Below the pieces are notes generated by a model. The model saw only the letters and a program-made list of their open reading frames with translations. It was not told the origin of the DNA and made no database searches. This document shows positions 1-36,892 of a stretch of DNA of 64,000 nt, one piece after another (position 1 is the stretch's first letter; each line of letters begins with the position of its first letter). Source of the DNA: Nitrospirota bacterium (GTDB lineage: Bacteria; Nitrospinota_A; UBA7883; JACRGQ01); contig JAJRYD010000004.1 of assembly GCA_024275955.1 (NCBI GenBank), positions 69,346 through 133,345 of the forward strand, given 5' to 3'. The position numbers were made by a program, and so were the translations under genes.

Positions 1-984
1 AAAAGCAGTCTCTTTGACTCTCTAAATTCACTTGAGGGAACAGTCAGAGAAATTTCACAATCTGGAACATTGCCATGCACCGATCTGAAAAATGTCCGCA
101 GGCAGGTATCAAACCTCCTGAGCAGGACAAGTGATTGGAACGGGCTGACTGAAGTTCACGAAGGCGCGAAGATACTGACTAAACGGATGATTTTCCTTCT
201 GGACCAGCTTATCTCCCTTATACGGGAAATAGGGGCTTTAAACGAACCAAACTTTAAAAAAATAGCGTTCCACGATTTCCAAAAAGAGTACCGTCAAAAT
301 TACGAAAAAATTTACGAAGAACAGGCTTTAAAAAACGGTATTAGGCTGGAGTGGAACCTTGATGTCCAAGTGAATATACGGTTCGACAGCAACCACCTTA
401 CGCGGATATGGAACAACCTTATTTCAAACGCCATCAAGTACAGCCCCAACGGAGGAACCGTTTCGATAAAAAGCAGGATGATGGGAACTCTGCTGGAAAT
501 AGCGGTAAGCGACAACGGAATAGGTATACTCAAAGAAGATATTGTCAATGTTTTTAAATCCGGCTTTCGCTCCAGAAACGCGGAGGATAGCGGAATCCCC
601 GGGACAGGAACAGGGCTTGGATATGTCAGCTACATACTAGAAAGATGCGGTGGAACAATATCGCTGGAAAGCCCCGGACGCGATGGAGCAAGCAGTACAT
701 TCGCTCTTTGTTTACCGATTTATAAAAAAGATTCCAAAGAAACCACAAGCCGAAAAGGGCGAATACTAGTGCTTGGCCAAAACAACACCATGCGCGATAT
801 AGCGGAAAAGATTAGAATGATGTCAGGCAGAACCGTGGAGAGATTTGAAATCGTTAATATGGAAAACGAAGAACTTGCCGGTATCACGGAAACTATGAAA
901 AATTTTGGAACCTTGCTTTACAGAGGAAACAACGAAGACAAAATGGCAGTATGCAACTGGGACTGTTTCCAAAAGAGTTTTTAA
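1..984 (+). CDS. Sensor histidine kinase, C-terminal part (HATPase_c domain); 5'-partial, the reading frame is open from base 1
   Basis: HATPase_c motifs (NLISNAIKYSPNGG; DNGIGI; GTGTGLGYVSY). No stop in frame from position 1. The last ~8 codons and the stop lie inside MITE copy 1. Confidence 0.75.
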   Translation, partial: KSSLFDSLNSLEGTVREISQSGTLPCTDLKNVRRQVSNLLSRTSDWNGLTEVHEGAKILTKRMIFLLDQLISLIREIGALNEPNFKKIAFHDFQKEYRQNYEKIYEEQALKNGIRLEWNLDVQVNIRFDSNHLTRIWNNLISNAIKYSPNGGTVSIKSRMMGTLLEIAVSDNGIGILKEDIVNVFKSGFRSRNAEDSGIPGTGTGLGYVSYILERCGGTISLESPGRDGASSTFALCLPIYKKDSKETTSRKGRILVLGQNNTMRDIAEKIRMMSGRTVERFEIVNMENEELAGITETMKNFGTLLYRGNNEDKMAVCNWDCFQKSF

Positions 985-1087
985 GCGTTTTAAAGGAGAA
1001 GTTCATTTTCTAACTTCGTAAAAACAGAGGCTTTAGAGATTGGCGATTAACAGCAAAATCAAATTTATGCCATTCGGCAACAGCCCT
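959..1087 (+). mobile_element. MITE copy 1 (~129 bp, TIR GGGACTGTTTCC...GGCAACAGCCC, 5-bp TSD CAACT)
   Basis: One of six near-identical ~129-130 bp elements in this window. The same 5 bp (caact) flank both ends. Confidence 0.75.
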
Positions 1088-1321
1088 CAACTGGCAAAAA
1101 AGCTAAAGGCTATCGTCGTTTGCGTAAACAAGCGGGACGAGGGAGGCGCTATAGTCGCGTCGGAAAAGGAGCTACACGATATTGCCGAGGATGCCTTCCA
1201 GATGAGCTTTGTGGCGGATATAATTCTTTCCGAACTTGACGAAATCTAAAAAACCGCTGGGCTTTGAAGGATGCAGTGGAATGCCCCCCCGCCTCCCAAC
1301 GGCCAAAAATCGTCCGCGTCC

Positions 1322-1810
1322 CTAGTGGGCTATGCCGGTTCGCATCATCGCGTTTTTGTAAAGGCTAGAAAGCTCCTTCAACGCCAAAGATAGGTTTGCC
1401 GGAAGGTCCTGAGGCACCTTTAGCGTAACGCCTGCCTTGCCGGAGACCCTCTTCCTTAAGCTCATAACCTCGTTATCCAAAATTATCGTTTCTATCATTC
1501 TACTTATCTCTACCTTCGCCTCTTTAGTAACCTGATGGTCAATATGCTCCCTTAACTGGTCTATATAGAAAAGCTCAACCTCCAGCTGGGTATCGGCTTT
1601 GATGGATGCCTTGTGAACCCTCTCCTTGCCCAACGCCGCAACTATACCTAGCACTTTGGGCCTATCGCCATTCCTTACTTCGATACTGCTTATCTTCTCC
1701 CCTCCAGAATATATCGACACCTTCCCGCTTTTGAGCCTATAAAAAAAATATGCCGGATTACCGCCCTCGCTTATAAGCCAATCACCGGCATTGAACCTCT
1801 TTACTTCCAT
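1322..1810 (-). CDS. Cyclic nucleotide-binding (cNMP/Crp-like) domain protein
   Basis: 162 aa with a beta-roll-like GGEKISSIEV...GIVAALG pattern typical of cNMP-binding domains. No DNA-binding HTH is seen. Confidence 0.5.
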   Translation of the reverse strand: MEVKRFNAGDWLISEGGNPAYFFYRLKSGKVSIYSGGEKISSIEVRNGDRPKVLGIVAALGKERVHKASIKADTQLEVELFYIDQLREHIDHQVTKEAKVEISRMIETIILDNEVMSLRKRVSGKAGVTLKVPQDLPANLSLALKELSSLYKNAMMRTGIAH

Positions 1811-2037
1811 TACTAACTCCTCTTTAAAAATTTATCCTCTTTCAAACTAAAATTTCAGGACTATTCAGAGGCAAGACTGATGCCATAACTGCGAAACATA
1901 TAATGCATTAATTTTCAAATAGTTGTCTGTATATATTTATAGACCGCAATCTATCGCTGTATGAATTTATAGAAGAACTGAGGTGCATTGTTATGATTAA
2001 TAATACATACAGGTGGCTGTTTTCTGTCGGTAGCTTG

Positions 2038-34504: not shown

Positions 34505-35722
34505 TTATATGGCAAACTCAAGCATAAGGATCATGTAGTTGTCATGGCCTCTACCGTCGCCGCTGTAAGCGGAGTACTCGGCAATAAGCTCAACATTCTG
34601 ACGAACATTCCACCAGCCACCAATTGAAGTGGTAGTCGAATCAGCAGCTGTAGCACCGTTCTCGTTGTTGATCTGCAACAAGGCCGCTTTGATACCTGTA
34701 TGAGCAAACCCAAGCGACGCGCCCAAGCTAAACGCGTCCTCAGAGTCGGTAGTAGAAGCGTTGTAGATGGTGTTTTTTGGGTTGGTCTGGTAAGTACCAG
34801 TAATATCAAGGGTCATACCATTAATGTCTTCAATCTGTGCCTGAAAGTCGATAGCGGTTGACTCTGTTTTGTACTCTTTCAGAGCAGTAACAGTACCGCC
34901 GCACTTGGTTCCGCACTTGGTCTTACCGGAAGTACCCTGGTAACCGATCATAAGGTCTACGCCGTCCCATACCTTAGGGGTAATGATAAAGCGAACGTAG
35001 GTTGAAAGGTCGAAGTTGGTATCGATGCTCTTTTGAGCAGGACCCCAAAGAGTAAAGTTGGCAAAGAAAAGCTCGTTGCCGCCGAATACGCCGATACCAG
35101 AAGCAGTACCCTGCGCAGGACCGTCGATAGCGAACGCCGCGATAGTTTCAGTTCTGTTTTCCCATCCACGGTTGAACCTGTGCGCGTTGTTCATAAGCTC
35201 CATGCCGTAGGAAGCTCCGCCAGCGTCAGTAGAGAATACTGTCGCGCCGCCCTGGAAACCGCCAAAGTCTTTCGAGAATATAAACTTGTTGGTTGCATCT
35301 TTGTTTGCGCCTTCGGTAAGGAAACCAAAGTTATCGCCTACACGACCGCCGATAAACAGCGCCGCCTCATCAGGCAGGTCAAGCTGACCACGGTCGGTCC
35401 CAACTGCTACTTCACCAGCGGCAGGCTTGTCTTTAGTAGAAGTCTTTTTGTAGCGCCATTTGTAGACCATTGATACATTAGCAACTGCTGGAATCGAAAG
35501 ACCATCATCTTCGATGAGATCTTGTGATGCCTGAGTAAAACCGCCGATCTTGAATTCGCGGCCGAAAGCGTTAAGCTTTGGAAGATGCTGGAAGTGGCAA
35601 GCGTCGCAACCCACGCCAACCTGACGTGCGAAAGACGGAATCGCTTCTGCGCTTTTAGGAGCAACGAAAAGCCCAACAACGGCAACCACTACCGCCAACA
35701 TTAAAGAACTAAACCGTTTCAT
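34505..35722 (-). CDS. Cyc2-like fused monoheme cytochrome c / outer-membrane beta-barrel porin (candidate extracellular electron-transfer protein)
   Basis: Signal peptide (…KSAEA), then a single CxxCH (GCDACH) ~10 residues later. The rest is Gly/Thr/Ser-rich with alternating hydrophobic beta-strand pattern. 405 aa. Confidence 0.55.
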   Translation of the reverse strand: MKRFSSLMLAVVVAVVGLFVAPKSAEAIPSFARQVGVGCDACHFQHLPKLNAFGREFKIGGFTQASQDLIEDDGLSIPAVANVSMVYKWRYKKTSTKDKPAAGEVAVGTDRGQLDLPDEAALFIGGRVGDNFGFLTEGANKDATNKFIFSKDFGGFQGGATVFSTDAGGASYGMELMNNAHRFNRGWENRTETIAAFAIDGPAQGTASGIGVFGGNELFFANFTLWGPAQKSIDTNFDLSTYVRFIITPKVWDGVDLMIGYQGTSGKTKCGTKCGGTVTALKEYKTESTAIDFQAQIEDINGMTLDITGTYQTNPKNTIYNASTTDSEDAFSLGASLGFAHTGIKAALLQINNENGATAADSTTTSIGGWWNVRQNVELIAEYSAYSGDGRGHDNYMILMLEFAI

Positions 35723-36316
35723 TTAGTAACCTCCTGGTTTCAAAAAACCGAGTTTATAATTTTTATTTATCCCTAACCTTTTAATTGAAAAACTAAACCA
35801 GACCTTCGAGAACCACCTCCCTTTTTAACCTTACAGGTTTTTTTTATTATACATATAGCACAAACAGCATAAAACGTAGAAATAATAACAACTTACGCCT
35901 ATTCTGTCAATAAATAATTAAAGAAGCTAAAAAAGCACTCACACTAAGCCTGTTTAGCGAATAAAAACCGAAACTACTAACAACCCACTGACTTTTAAGA
36001 CGCTATATACGAAAGATTGACGCAAAAAACAGACTTCCCTAACTCCCTCTAAATATCTCTGGCTAGTATACATTATAGAAACAGATTGACAAGAAAAAAT
36101 AGTTGAAAACCACCGAAAGTATGGGGCTATAAATATTTATCGCTTTTTGAATTGCAGATATTTTTTTAGAAAAGCAAAAATGGAAAACAAGACCCTAAAA
36201 TAAAAAGTTTTCATTTTTAAATTTTGATTAGCAAACTTTTTGCTGTCTTTTTTATTTTTAAAACTTGCTTCTAGTCAAAAAGTATTTGAAAAAAATTGAG
36301 TGCGAACTTATTTTAA

Positions 36317-36446
36317 GGGGCTGTTGCCGAAATAGTTTTTGGAGTGTTTCAAGAAAAGACTCATCTCTTAATTTATTCAAACATAGATGCTTTAGCGGCG
36401 GGTAATTTTAAACCGAATCAAATTTATGGGATTTGGCAACAGTTTC
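36317..36446 (+). mobile_element. MITE copy 6 (divergent variant, TSD TTTAA)
   Basis: Colinear with the MITE consensus at ~70% identity; TTTAA flanks both sides. Confidence 0.65.
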
Positions 36447-36763
36447 TTTAAGCATATTAGCTTCATCGCCGTTCGCGCAGATGTTTTTAATGTTAAAGAG
36501 CTATCTAATTCACTTTAGTGCGTTCGTACCTGCCCACCTTAGACCCAGCATACCGTGAAAGTTTAATTAAAGGCTGGTAAAAACTTCGGATTGATTACTA
36601 AAATATTTTTCAACCTCGCTTTGCCCGCAGAATGCCGACCCGTTTCGAACAGCAACAGCCTAACCGCCCTCAGCGCTTTGTGCCAACCCTTCGTCTGTTT
36701 TTTACCACAGAGTAGCGGAGTAGCGGAGGGATGCGCTTTTTTTGCGTTGCAAATGAGTAAGAA

Positions 36764-36892
36764 GGGGCTGTTTTCAAAAGAGTTTTTTGAGCATTTTAAA
36801 GAAAAGTTCATTTTCTAACTTTGTAAAAACAGAGGCTTTAGAGATTGGCGGTTTACAGCAAAACCAAATTTATGCCATTCGGCAACAGCCCC
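36764..36892 (+). mobile_element. MITE copy 5 (TSD AAGAA)
   Basis: Identical 5 bp (aagaa) on both flanks. Confidence 0.75.

What the first reader, a model, noticed from the sequence alone, without database searches (positions are those of the whole stretch)
959..36892. Six-copy MITE family with GGGG-initiated ~14-bp TIRs and 5-bp target-site duplications (Tn3-derived TIME-like?)
Copies at 959-1087, 26897-27026, 31478-31606, 33525-33652, 36317-36446 (divergent) and 36764-36892 are all in the same orientation. They share termini GGGACTGTTTCCAAAAG... / ...TTCGGCAACAGCCCC, an imperfect inverted repeat. Five of six are flanked by perfect 5-bp direct repeats: CAACT, GAAAT, CGCAG, TTTAA, AAGAA. The elements are non-coding and all lie in intergenic positions. 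A GGGG-start TIR with a 5-bp TSD is the hallmark of Tn3-family transposition, suggesting trans-mobilisation by a Tn3-type transposase encoded elsewhere. Copy 1 supplies the last 8 codons and the stop of the histidine kinase gene.
Basis: seen in the sequence. Interest (0 to 1): 0.6.

Follow-up and report, generated by a model that had tools for sequence, protein, structure and literature searches.

The report
Small non-coding jumping-DNA family (MITE)

Summary
There are six same-strand copies of 128-130 bp, with terminal inverted repeats GGGRCTGTTKCCRAA. Five of the six have perfect 5-bp target-site duplications.

[quoted passage not shown] They have no coding capacity, no Rfam match, no conserved RNA fold beyond end pairing, and no promoter or terminator motif.

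A two-ended terminal-repeat search of metagenomes found 13 more elements. Their cores are unrelated, but they share the same 15-16-bp ends, 5-bp duplications and one nested insertion. One host is Patescibacteria-like. So this is one family within a wider class defined by its ends.

The Tn3/TIME interpretation is only partly supported. The GGG(G) tip and the 5-bp duplication fit Tn3. Three things do not: the conserved end is about 16 bp rather than 38 bp and has no inner TAAG, the copies are dense and can nest despite Tn3-type immunity, and no Tn3 end resembles these ends.

The ends match the IS6/IS26 consensus (GGTTCTGTTGCAAA) at 10-11 of 14 positions, including all its invariant bases. However, IS6 elements make 8-bp duplications.

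No parent transposase was found in the window, in related loci, or in the plasmid or viral collections. The host genome itself is not in the searchable collections.

Verdict: a new MITE family of a known kind, parent unresolved, of modest interest.

The parts
959..1087 (+). MITE copy 1 (129 bp). Target-site duplication CAACT at 954-958 and 1088-1092. The right tip is degraded to ...CAGCCCT. The copy overlaps the last 26 nt of the histidine-kinase ORF 70-984.
26897..27026 (+). MITE copy 2 (130 bp). Target-site duplication GAAAT at 26892-26896 and 27027-27031. It lies 286 nt downstream of rho.
31478..31606 (+). MITE copy 3 (129 bp). Its flanks CTTAA/ATAAA match at 3 of 5 positions, so the duplication is degraded. 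It lies 103 nt downstream of thrS and is 89% identical to copy 2.
33525..33652 (+). MITE copy 4 (128 bp). Target-site duplication CGCAG at 33520-33524 and 33653-33657. It lies 29 nt downstream of mgsA/rarA.
36317..36446 (+). MITE copy 5 (130 bp), the most divergent copy at 63-68% identity to the others. Target-site duplication TTTAA at 36312-36316 and 36447-36451. Its left end is GGGGCTGTTGCCGAA and its right tip is degraded (GAAACTGTTGCCAAA). It lies in the 1.3-kb ccmF-porin spacer.
36764..36892 (+). MITE copy 6 (129 bp). Target-site duplication AAGAA at 36759-36763 and 36893-36897. It lies 318 bp from copy 5 and is 88-91% identical to copies 1 and 4.

Best explanation
[quoted passage not shown] They are about 129 bp long, AT-rich and non-coding, and they retain only the two ends of a DDE-type transposon. 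They belong to a wider class of MITEs, found in several uncultured lineages, that share the end GGG-N-CTGTTGCC-RAA but have unrelated cores.

Shown:
- The inverted ends.
- Exact 5-bp duplications of a non-specific, mostly A/T-rich target.
- Multiple copies.
- Nested insertion.
- Insertion into gene-poor spots just after stop codons.

Inferred: a transposase encoded elsewhere bound the roughly 16-bp ends, cut at the GGG tips, and joined them to target strands staggered by 5 bp. Repair of that stagger produced the duplications. The copies in this window look like old, probably inactive insertions with no detectable function of their own.

Which transposase was responsible is not shown. My estimates are:
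- About 0.35: an uncharacterised relative of the IS6/IS26 family, which has the same end signature (GG, then CTGTTGC in the same register, then A-rich).
- About 0.2: a Tn3-family enzyme.
- About 0.1: an IS1595/IS1016- or IS1-like enzyme.
- About 0.35: something not yet described.
For: Repeat family, ends and duplications.

Independent support from metagenomes:
- The search pattern fixed only positions 5-15 of one end and positions 1-15 of the other. Even so, the hits carry GGG/GGN tips at the unconstrained end, and 4 of the 12 evaluable elements have perfect 5-bp duplications (ATTAT, CTTAA, TTTAT, CTAAT), with 3 more matching at 4 of 5 positions. Counting the window copies, 9 of 18 evaluable elements have perfect duplications.
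- A complete inner element flanked by CTTAC lies inside an outer element flanked by CTTAA. This is seen in two independent assemblies.

No alternative function was detected:
- No Rfam family matches.
- Fold z-scores are only -0.5 to -3.9, and the only consistent pairing is between the two ends.
- No promoter-like or terminator-like site lies inside any of copies 2-6; copy 1 lay outside the scanned region.
- The elements contain no ORF of any size worth noting.

End comparison:
- The published IS6/IS26 consensus is GGTTCTGTTGCAAA, with G1, G2 and G7 invariant, G10 highly conserved, and positions 3-4 the most variable (PMC6807381). The related motifs are cTGTt and caaa (PMC7986276).
- Real IS26, IS6100-like and IS1216-like ends read here are GGCACTGTTGCAAA, GGCTCTGTTGCAAA and GGTTCTGTTGCAAAG.
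- The MITE consensus GGGACTGTTGCCGAA matches IS26 at 11 of 14 positions. The variant GGGACTGTTGCCAAAT matches at 14 of 15 with one inserted C. Position 4 is also the variable position within this class.
Against: - No autonomous element with these ends was found anywhere I could search. Trans-mobilisation is therefore inferred, not shown.
- Every characterised bacterial IS6/IS26 member makes 8-bp duplications, not 5-bp ones (PMC7986276, PMC6807381). Only one archaeal entry, ISSto2, is recorded with 5 bp.
- IS6 elements move by forming cointegrates, which makes simple chromosomal insertions of a 129-bp element awkward.
- The motif GG-N3-TG(T)TG is also seen at the ends of IS1, IS903 and IS1595. 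Harmer and Hall note that such bases recur across families. End similarity alone is therefore weak evidence.
- Conservation of positions 1-15 among the metagenome hits is partly imposed by the search pattern.
Confidence: 0.85

Rival explanations
1. The elements are TIMEs: deletion derivatives of a Tn3-family transposon, moved by a Tn3-type TnpA through replicative paste-and-copy transposition, with the cointegrate resolved by recombination.
For: - The tips are GGG(G), and the target duplications are 5 bp and mostly A/T-rich. TIMEs make 5-6-bp AT-rich duplications (PMC4133298, PMC13367494).
- A gapped comparison with a Tn4651-type end shares GGGG..TGCCGA, about 12 of 17 columns with 2 gaps.
Against: - The conserved end is about 16 bp, not about 38 bp, and there is no inner TAAG.
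- Only 8 of 16 positions match the Tn4651-type end without gaps. By my recollection of the Tn3 end, only 6 of 16 match.
- No similarity to any plasmid-borne end was found at E<=10.
- There are six copies in 36 kb, two of them 318 bp apart, and a same-end nested insertion. This conflicts with Tn3-type target immunity and with the single-copy habit of TIMEs (PMC4133298).
- Position 5 is C, whereas it is T in all the Tn4651-type ends read next to or within a Tn3-family context here.
- One host is a Patescibacteria-like organism with a small genome.
Confidence: 0.2
2. The elements derive from an IS1595-family (IS1016 subgroup) or IS1-family insertion sequence. The ends of those families start GGGGCTG or GGnnnTG.
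For: IS1016-subgroup ends read from six plasmid or chromosome records are GGGGCTGT(A/C)(C/G)TAGATAA, or GGGGCTTAGGAAGC in the Hymenobacter record. ISApl4 has GGGGCTGTACTAGA (PMC12561309). The outer 8 nt are therefore identical to the GGGG variant of the MITE end. ISApl4 also reaches 39 copies per genome.
Against: - Beyond position 8 the ends are unrelated.
- These IS make 8-bp duplications (TATTTCTT, TAATTTTT and TAAATCAA; PMC12561309), not 5-bp ones.
- The IS1 end was compared from memory only, at about 10 of 16 positions.
Confidence: 0.1
3. The repeats are not mobile DNA at all. Instead they are a host-selected repeated regulatory or structural element, such as a small RNA, a terminator, or a protein-binding array like REP/BIME.
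For: All six copies share one orientation, and four of them lie within 300 nt downstream of + strand genes.
Against: - Five exact 5-bp flanking duplications, each of a different sequence, cannot be explained without insertion.
- There is no Rfam hit.
- There is no covarying structure beyond the pairing of the ends: 2 of 33 pairs are compensatory.
- No promoter or terminator motif lies inside any of copies 2-6; copy 1 was not scanned.
- Elements elsewhere with the same ends have unrelated cores.
- Copies 5 and 6 are antisense to their neighbouring genes.
Confidence: 0.03

Closest known systems
[quoted passage not shown]
   Same: Both are small, non-coding and bounded by inverted repeats. Both start with G-runs, make 5-bp (TIMEs: 5-6-bp) mostly A/T-rich target duplications, and are mobilised in trans (PMC4133298, PMC13367494).
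   Different: - TIMEs carry about 38-bp ends clearly homologous to a named Tn3-family transposon. They are 209-262 bp long, mostly on plasmids, and usually single-copy.
- The elements here have about 16 conserved end bases with no Tn3 homology. They are 121-223 bp long, chromosomal, multi-copy, and able to nest.
IS6/IS26 family and its two catalogued MITEs (MITEBth2, MITEHarch3)
   Same: The end signature is shared: a GG tip, CTGTTGC at positions 5-11, and an A-rich stretch at 13-15. The invariant bases G1, G2, G7 and G10 are all present, and variability is concentrated at positions 3-4 (PMC6807381, PMC7986276). MITE derivatives of the family are known to exist.
   Different: - IS6 members make 8-bp duplications, whereas these elements make 5-bp ones.
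- Position 12 is C, or an extra C is present.
- No IS6-type transposase with these ends was found.
- IS6 moves by forming cointegrates and is typical of plasmids and resistance regions.
IS1016 subgroup of the IS1595 family (ISApl4, ISEc69, ISAba36, Neisseria IS1016)
   Same: The outer 8 nt, GGGGCTGT, are identical. Both have short ends and can reach high chromosomal copy numbers (PMC12561309).
   Different: The duplications are 8 bp, and the inner half of the end is unrelated (CTAGATAA against TGCCGAAT).
bcr1-type chromosomal MITEs of the Bacillus cereus group (recalled from memory, not tested here)
   Same: They are an abundant chromosomal intergenic MITE of about 150 bp with a 5-bp duplication and no identified transposase.
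   Different: As I recall, bcr1 targets a specific TTTAT site, has different ends, and occurs in a different phylum.

Membership tests
MITE (generic) | Small (under about 300 bp) with no coding capacity | tested here: met
   The copies are 128-130 bp and have no ORF of their own. Only chance ORFs cross them.
MITE (generic) | Terminal inverted repeats | tested here: met
   There are 12 inverted sites for the 6 copies, against 0.7 expected by chance. Each pair of ends shares 12-13 of 15 bases.
MITE (generic) | Flanking target-site duplications of fixed length | tested here: met
   Perfect 5-bp duplications flank 5 of 6 copies in the window and 9 of 18 evaluable elements overall, with 3 more matching at 4 of 5 positions.
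MITE (generic) | An autonomous element with the same ends that supplies the transposase | tested here: inconclusive
   None was found in the window, in 12 metagenome loci, in the plasmids or in the viral contigs. The host genome is absent from the collections: searches returned 0 hits, and searches found nothing on record.
TIME (Tn3-derived MITE) | Ends of about 38 bp homologous to those of a Tn3-family transposon, with an inner TAAG-type motif | tested here: not met
   Conservation stops at positions 15-16, apart from a weak T-run at 21-24. There is no consistent TAAG. Only 8 of 16 positions match a Tn4651-type end without gaps. The plasmid search gave no hit to the ends.
TIME (Tn3-derived MITE) | GGGG tip | tested here: inconclusive
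   The tips read GGGA, GGGG, GGGC, GGGT, GGCA and GGAG. G1-G3 are conserved but position 4 is not.
TIME (Tn3-derived MITE) | 5-bp (5-6-bp) A/T-rich target duplication | tested here: met
   PMC4133298.
TIME (Tn3-derived MITE) | Low copy number per replicon, consistent with Tn3 target immunity | tested here: not met
   There are six copies in 36 kb, and two are 318 bp apart. A nested insertion between elements with the same ends occurs in L188/L163.
TIME (Tn3-derived MITE) | A cognate Tn3-family tnpA in the same genome | not testable with these tools
IS6/IS26-derived MITE | 14-bp end consensus GGTTCTGTTGCAAA, with G1, G2 and G7 invariant and G10 conserved | tested here: met
   10-11 of 14 positions are identical to the consensus and to IS26, and all invariant bases are present. 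The mismatches fall at the family's variable positions 3-4 and at positions 12-13 (PMC6807381).
IS6/IS26-derived MITE | 8-bp target duplication | tested here: not met
   All clear cases have 5 bp, and none extends to 8. The family standard is 8 bp (PMC7986276).
IS6/IS26-derived MITE | An IS6-type transposase (H-HTH plus DDE) bounded by the same ends | tested here: inconclusive
   A tblastn search with Tnp26 found no such transposase in any fetched locus. The IS6-family loci retrieved from IMG/VR (79 loci, L201-L279) contain no site matching the MITE end at up to 2 mismatches other than canonical IS26-type ends.
IS1595 family, IS1016 subgroup | End GGGGCTGT... together with an 8-bp duplication | tested here: not met
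   The outer 8 nt match, but the inner half does not, and the duplication is 5 bp rather than 8 (PMC12561309).
IS701 / ISH3 / IS1634 (families with 4-6-bp duplications) | Published end consensus: ---YACT-Y--YR for IS701, CRGT for ISH3, C-----YT for IS1634 | tested here: not met
   None of these aligns in register with GGGNCTGTTGCC (table in PMC2266710). The end of the ISAba11 subgroup could not be read.

The most novel reading that the evidence does not exclude
The MITEs are the footprints of an undescribed group of small DDE transposases that is widespread in groundwater and other uncultured lineages (Nitrospinota-like and Patescibacteria-like). This group would recognise IS6/IS26-type ends but make 5-bp rather than 8-bp staggered cuts, yield simple and even nested insertions, and lack target immunity. 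That would make it a new IS6-related subfamily or a new IS family.
Probability: 0.35. Interest if true: 0.5.

Novelty: new member of a known kind. Interest (0 to 1): 0.33.

Why it matters
In practice, the family should be masked or annotated in this genome. It alters the C-terminus of one histidine kinase, and it explains why contigs break at this repeat in related metagenome assemblies: several metagenome contigs end inside these elements.

The combination of IS6/IS26-type ends with a Tn3-type 5-bp duplication fits no catalogued IS family. The same ends occur on unrelated cores in at least two distant host lineages. Finding the cognate transposase would therefore either extend the clinically important IS6/IS26 family into environmental phyla with a different cutting geometry, or define a new family. 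Both outcomes would interest transposon specialists, but neither would change how MITEs are understood.

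Tried and rejected
1. Rfam scan of the whole window: 0 hits.
2. RNA folding of each copy on both strands, plus an alignment fold. Only the end-to-end pairing is consistent, so a structured-RNA reading is rejected.
3. Promoter and terminator scan of 26.5-37.3 kb: nothing lies inside the copies in that region.
4. Left-end 24-mer searched in 185,579 species genomes and in the JGI metagenomes: 0 hits in both. The host genome and close relatives are not in these collections. 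Exact-protein look-ups of ThrRS and UvrA also found nothing.
5. Empty-site test in relatives. The best relatives are Nitrospinota/'Nitrospirae' MAGs with only 69-74% ThrRS identity. The sua5-orf511-thrS(-mgsA) gene order is kept, but the intergenic DNA cannot be aligned, so this test was not possible.
6. End-only scans of the viral contigs returned chance hits in coding DNA, with no pairs and no duplications.
7. blastn of 14 of the 19 elements, concatenated, against the plasmids. The only hits were to an unrelated internal motif of one metagenome element.
8. Pfam scans of the large ORFs around the metagenome elements found only housekeeping genes.
9. Attempt to extend the solo end at L163:13968 through an identical TrxB protein. 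The other assembly also breaks 124 nt into that element.
10. Retrieval of IS6-family loci from IMG/VR, and of IS1595-family and Tn4651-type loci from the plasmids, to read real ends. None carries the MITE end.
11. Attempt to read the ISAba11 (IS701 family, 5-bp duplication) ends from pAB3. No annotated copy exists in the held record.
12. Full-text search for the end sequences, and for MITEs in Nitrospinota, found no relevant paper.

Full report
**1. The observation**

Aligning the six copies with 30-nt flanks shows that similarity begins and ends sharply at GGG...CCC.

The end motif GGGRCTGTTKCCRAA, allowing up to 2 mismatches, occurs 12 times. That is one + site and one - site per copy, and none elsewhere. 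Shuffles give 0.70 on average and never more than 2. An nhmmer profile built from the six copies finds no seventh copy.

The five bases on either side are identical for five copies: CAACT, GAAAT, CGCAG, TTTAA and AAGAA. Copy 3 has CTTAA/ATAAA. Each perfect 5-mer match has a chance probability of about 1/1024, so five different ones are proof of insertion events.

Pairwise identity among the copies is 63-91%. There are two subgroups (copies 1, 4 and 6; copies 2 and 3) and one outlier (copy 5). The copies have 35-37% GC against 47% for the window. These are old insertions, not a recent burst.

Copy 1 landed four codons before the stop of a histidine-kinase gene. Removing the element and one copy of CAACT restores ...AVCNWQKS*. 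With the element in place the protein ends ...AVCNWDCFQKSF*.

**2. Context and host**

The neighbouring genes are ordinary chromosomal ones. They include a histidine kinase, a cNMP-binding regulator, rho, sua5/tsaC, thrS, mgsA/rarA, a porin, ccmF, ligA, uvrA, a Mur ligase, trpE and serA. No transposase is encoded in the 64 kb.

The closest ThrRS sequences in 185,579 species genomes come from Nitrospinota/Nitrospinales MAGs and one 'Nitrospirae' MAG, at 69-74% identity. Exact look-ups of two window proteins find nothing, and the left-end 24-mer has no match in the genome or metagenome collections. The host is therefore an uncultured Nitrospinota-like bacterium whose genome cannot be reached with these tools.

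The sua5-orf511-thrS gene order, extended to mgsA in one MAG, is conserved in the relatives.

**3. What the element is not**

- No Rfam family matches.
- Single-sequence folds are only modestly better than shuffles (z from -0.5 to -3.9). The alignment fold keeps only the pairing between the two ends, with 2 compensatory pairs out of 33.
- No promoter-like or terminator-like site lies inside any of copies 2-6; copy 1 lies outside the region scanned.

I therefore see no evidence of a function for the host.

**4. A wider class defined by the ends**

I searched the JGI/ENA metagenomes with a two-ended pattern that fixed only the ends and left the core free. It returned 12 loci carrying 13 elements of 121-223 bp. 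Their cores are unrelated to the window family and mostly unrelated to each other.

Three features that the pattern did not require turn up anyway:
- A GGG/GGN tip at the unconstrained end.
- A weak T-run at positions 21-24.
- 5-bp flanking duplications. Four are perfect (ATTAT, CTTAA, TTTAT, CTAAT) and three more match at 4 of 5 positions.

In one population, two independent assemblies show a complete inner element flanked by CTTAC inside an outer element flanked by CTTAA. The thioredoxin reductase of that host is closest, among named hits, to Candidatus Uhrbacteria at about 64%, so it is a Patescibacteria-like organism.

Several metagenome contigs end inside these elements, as expected for multi-copy repeats. 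The window family is thus one member of a class spread across distant lineages. All members presumably serve the same kind of transposase.

**5. Which transposase?**

The search for an autonomous parent failed everywhere I could look:
- The window itself.
- The metagenome loci.
- 72,556 plasmids, by blastn at E<=10.
- IMG/VR viral contigs, by several end patterns.
- An attempt to walk out from a solo end in L163.

The family assignment therefore has to rest on the ends and on the duplication length, and the two disagree.

*Tn3.* The duplication length and the G-rich tip fit. TIMEs, however, are defined by about 38-bp ends homologous to a Tn3-family transposon. They are 209-262 bp long, 97% plasmid-borne, and mostly single-copy, which is attributed to target immunity (PMC4133298, PMC13367494).

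Here only about 16 bp are conserved and there is no inner TAAG. A genuine Tn4651-type end, read next to a Tn3-family tnpA/tnpC pair (GGGGTYATGCCGAGATAAGGCAAAATTAGG), matches 8 of 16 positions without gaps, or about 12 of 17 with two gaps. The density of copies and the nested insertion also argue against immunity.

*IS6/IS26.* Harmer and Hall give the family's end consensus as GGTTCTGTTGCAAA. G1, G2 and G7 are essentially invariant, G10 is highly conserved, and positions 3-4 are the most variable (PMC6807381). Varani et al. stress the GG tips and the cTGTt and caaa motifs (PMC7986276).

I read real ends from IMG/VR loci. IS26 has GGCACTGTTGCAAA, an IS6100-like element has GGCTCTGTTGCAAA, and an IS1216/IS257-like element has GGTTCTGTTGCAAAG.

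The MITE consensus GGGACTGTTGCCGAA shares 11 of 14 positions with IS26 in the same register. The common variant GGGACTGTTGCCAAAT differs from IS26's GGCACTGTTGCAAAT only by C3 to G and one extra C. The variable position within the MITE class is again position 4. For a random 14-mer, 10 or more matches has p of about 3e-4, which is still about 0.01 after allowing for some 30 family consensuses.

Against this reading:
- The family makes 8-bp duplications. One archaeal entry, ISSto2, is listed with 5 bp (PMC6807381).
- The family moves through cointegrates.
- No IS6-type transposase with these ends was found.

*IS1595/IS1016 and IS1.* IS1016-subgroup ends read from six records are GGGGCTGT(A/C)(C/G)TAGATAA (one, from Hymenobacter, reads GGGGCTTAGGAAGC), with 8-bp duplications. 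ISApl4 has GGGGCTGTACTAGA with 8-bp repeats (PMC12561309). The outer 8 nt are identical to the GGGG variant, but the rest is unrelated. From memory, IS1 (GGTGATGCTGCCAAC...) matches at about 10 of 16 positions and makes 8-9-bp duplications.

*Families with 4-6-bp duplications.* The published end consensuses of IS701, ISH3 and IS1634 do not fit in register (PMC2266710). I could not read an ISAba11 end.

**6. Verdict**

The repeats are real MITEs (confidence about 0.95). They were inserted by a trans-acting DDE transposase that makes 5-bp staggered cuts.

The Tn3/TIME label is not supported as a family membership, because two defining features were tested and failed.

The ends point to an IS6/IS26-like or, more broadly, a 'GG-N3-TG' recognition class, while the duplication length points away from it. 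My weighting is:
- IS6-related: 0.35
- Tn3: 0.2
- IS1595/IS1: 0.1
- Undescribed: 0.35

No paper in the searchable library mentions these end sequences or MITEs in Nitrospinota.

As it stands, this is a new member of a well-known kind of element. It carries an unresolved and mildly unusual end/duplication combination.

Noticed in passing
window 11354-11395 and 39603-39644: A 42-nt segment is repeated at 83% identity (family D3). Both copies lie about 90-170 nt upstream of minus-strand genes: the response regulator at 10475-11266 and the ccm-cluster gene at 39041-39475. Read on the minus strand, each copy has GGAG, then ATGACTGTAATTTTC(A/G)AACTGATAC (MTVIFKLI../MTVIFELI..), but the ORFs are shorter than 20 aa. 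It may be a shared leader or operator. It remains unexplained.
   Followed up: partly
window 26693-26717 and 27385-27409: A 25-nt repeat at 96% identity, GCGAAAAGCA(A/G)ACCCGCAATGCGGG, occurs twice, 692 bp apart on either side of MITE copy 2. On the minus strand it scores as a terminator-like hairpin followed by a T-rich tail. The second copy lies inside the predicted start of the sua5 ORF, so that start codon (27309) may be called too far upstream.
   Followed up: partly
window 26619-26808: Three degenerate 29-nt direct repeats, CGCGTG..GC.....TCGCTCGCGG.AA, lie at 26619, 26725 and 26780 in the long rho-sua5 spacer. Their nature is unknown.
   Followed up: no
window ~32054-32085; L121 ~2800-2830: A G/C-rich hairpin followed by a T-run (GGGGGAGCGGTCACACCTCCCCC TAACTTTT) lies just upstream of mgsA. 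It is the only part of the thrS-mgsA spacer conserved with the 74%-related MAG. This suggests a small gene or RNA between thrS and mgsA that ends in a conserved terminator.
   Followed up: no
window 35882-35910 (minus strand): The best promoter-like site in the scanned region (TTGACA, 17-nt spacer, TG, TATTAT; 11 of 12 matches) sits about 160 nt upstream of the porin-like gene at 34505-35722. It is a likely porin promoter, and it lies about 400 bp from MITE copy 5.
   Followed up: no
L160 3762-3902 (minus strand), internal part: The core of this metagenome MITE contains a motif...CATTACGAGGAGCGGAGCGACGAAGCAATCTC..., that also hits plasmids of Methylosinus trichosporium and Halomonas at 90-94% identity over about 32-38 nt. 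It appears to be a separate, widespread short repeat captured inside the MITE.
   Followed up: no
L162 1143-1284: This metagenome MITE carries a perfect tandem duplication of its first 44 bp, so it has two left ends in direct order followed by one right end. L163 9648-9870 is a deleted version of the nested pair that is seen intact in L188 1-215.
   Followed up: partly
window 959-36892: All six copies share one orientation even though the flanking genes run both ways. The two-sided chance of this is about 0.03. Whether it reflects the replication direction, the transposition mechanism (directly oriented copies are typical of IS26-type cointegrate chemistry) or coincidence could not be tested without the whole genome.
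   Followed up: no
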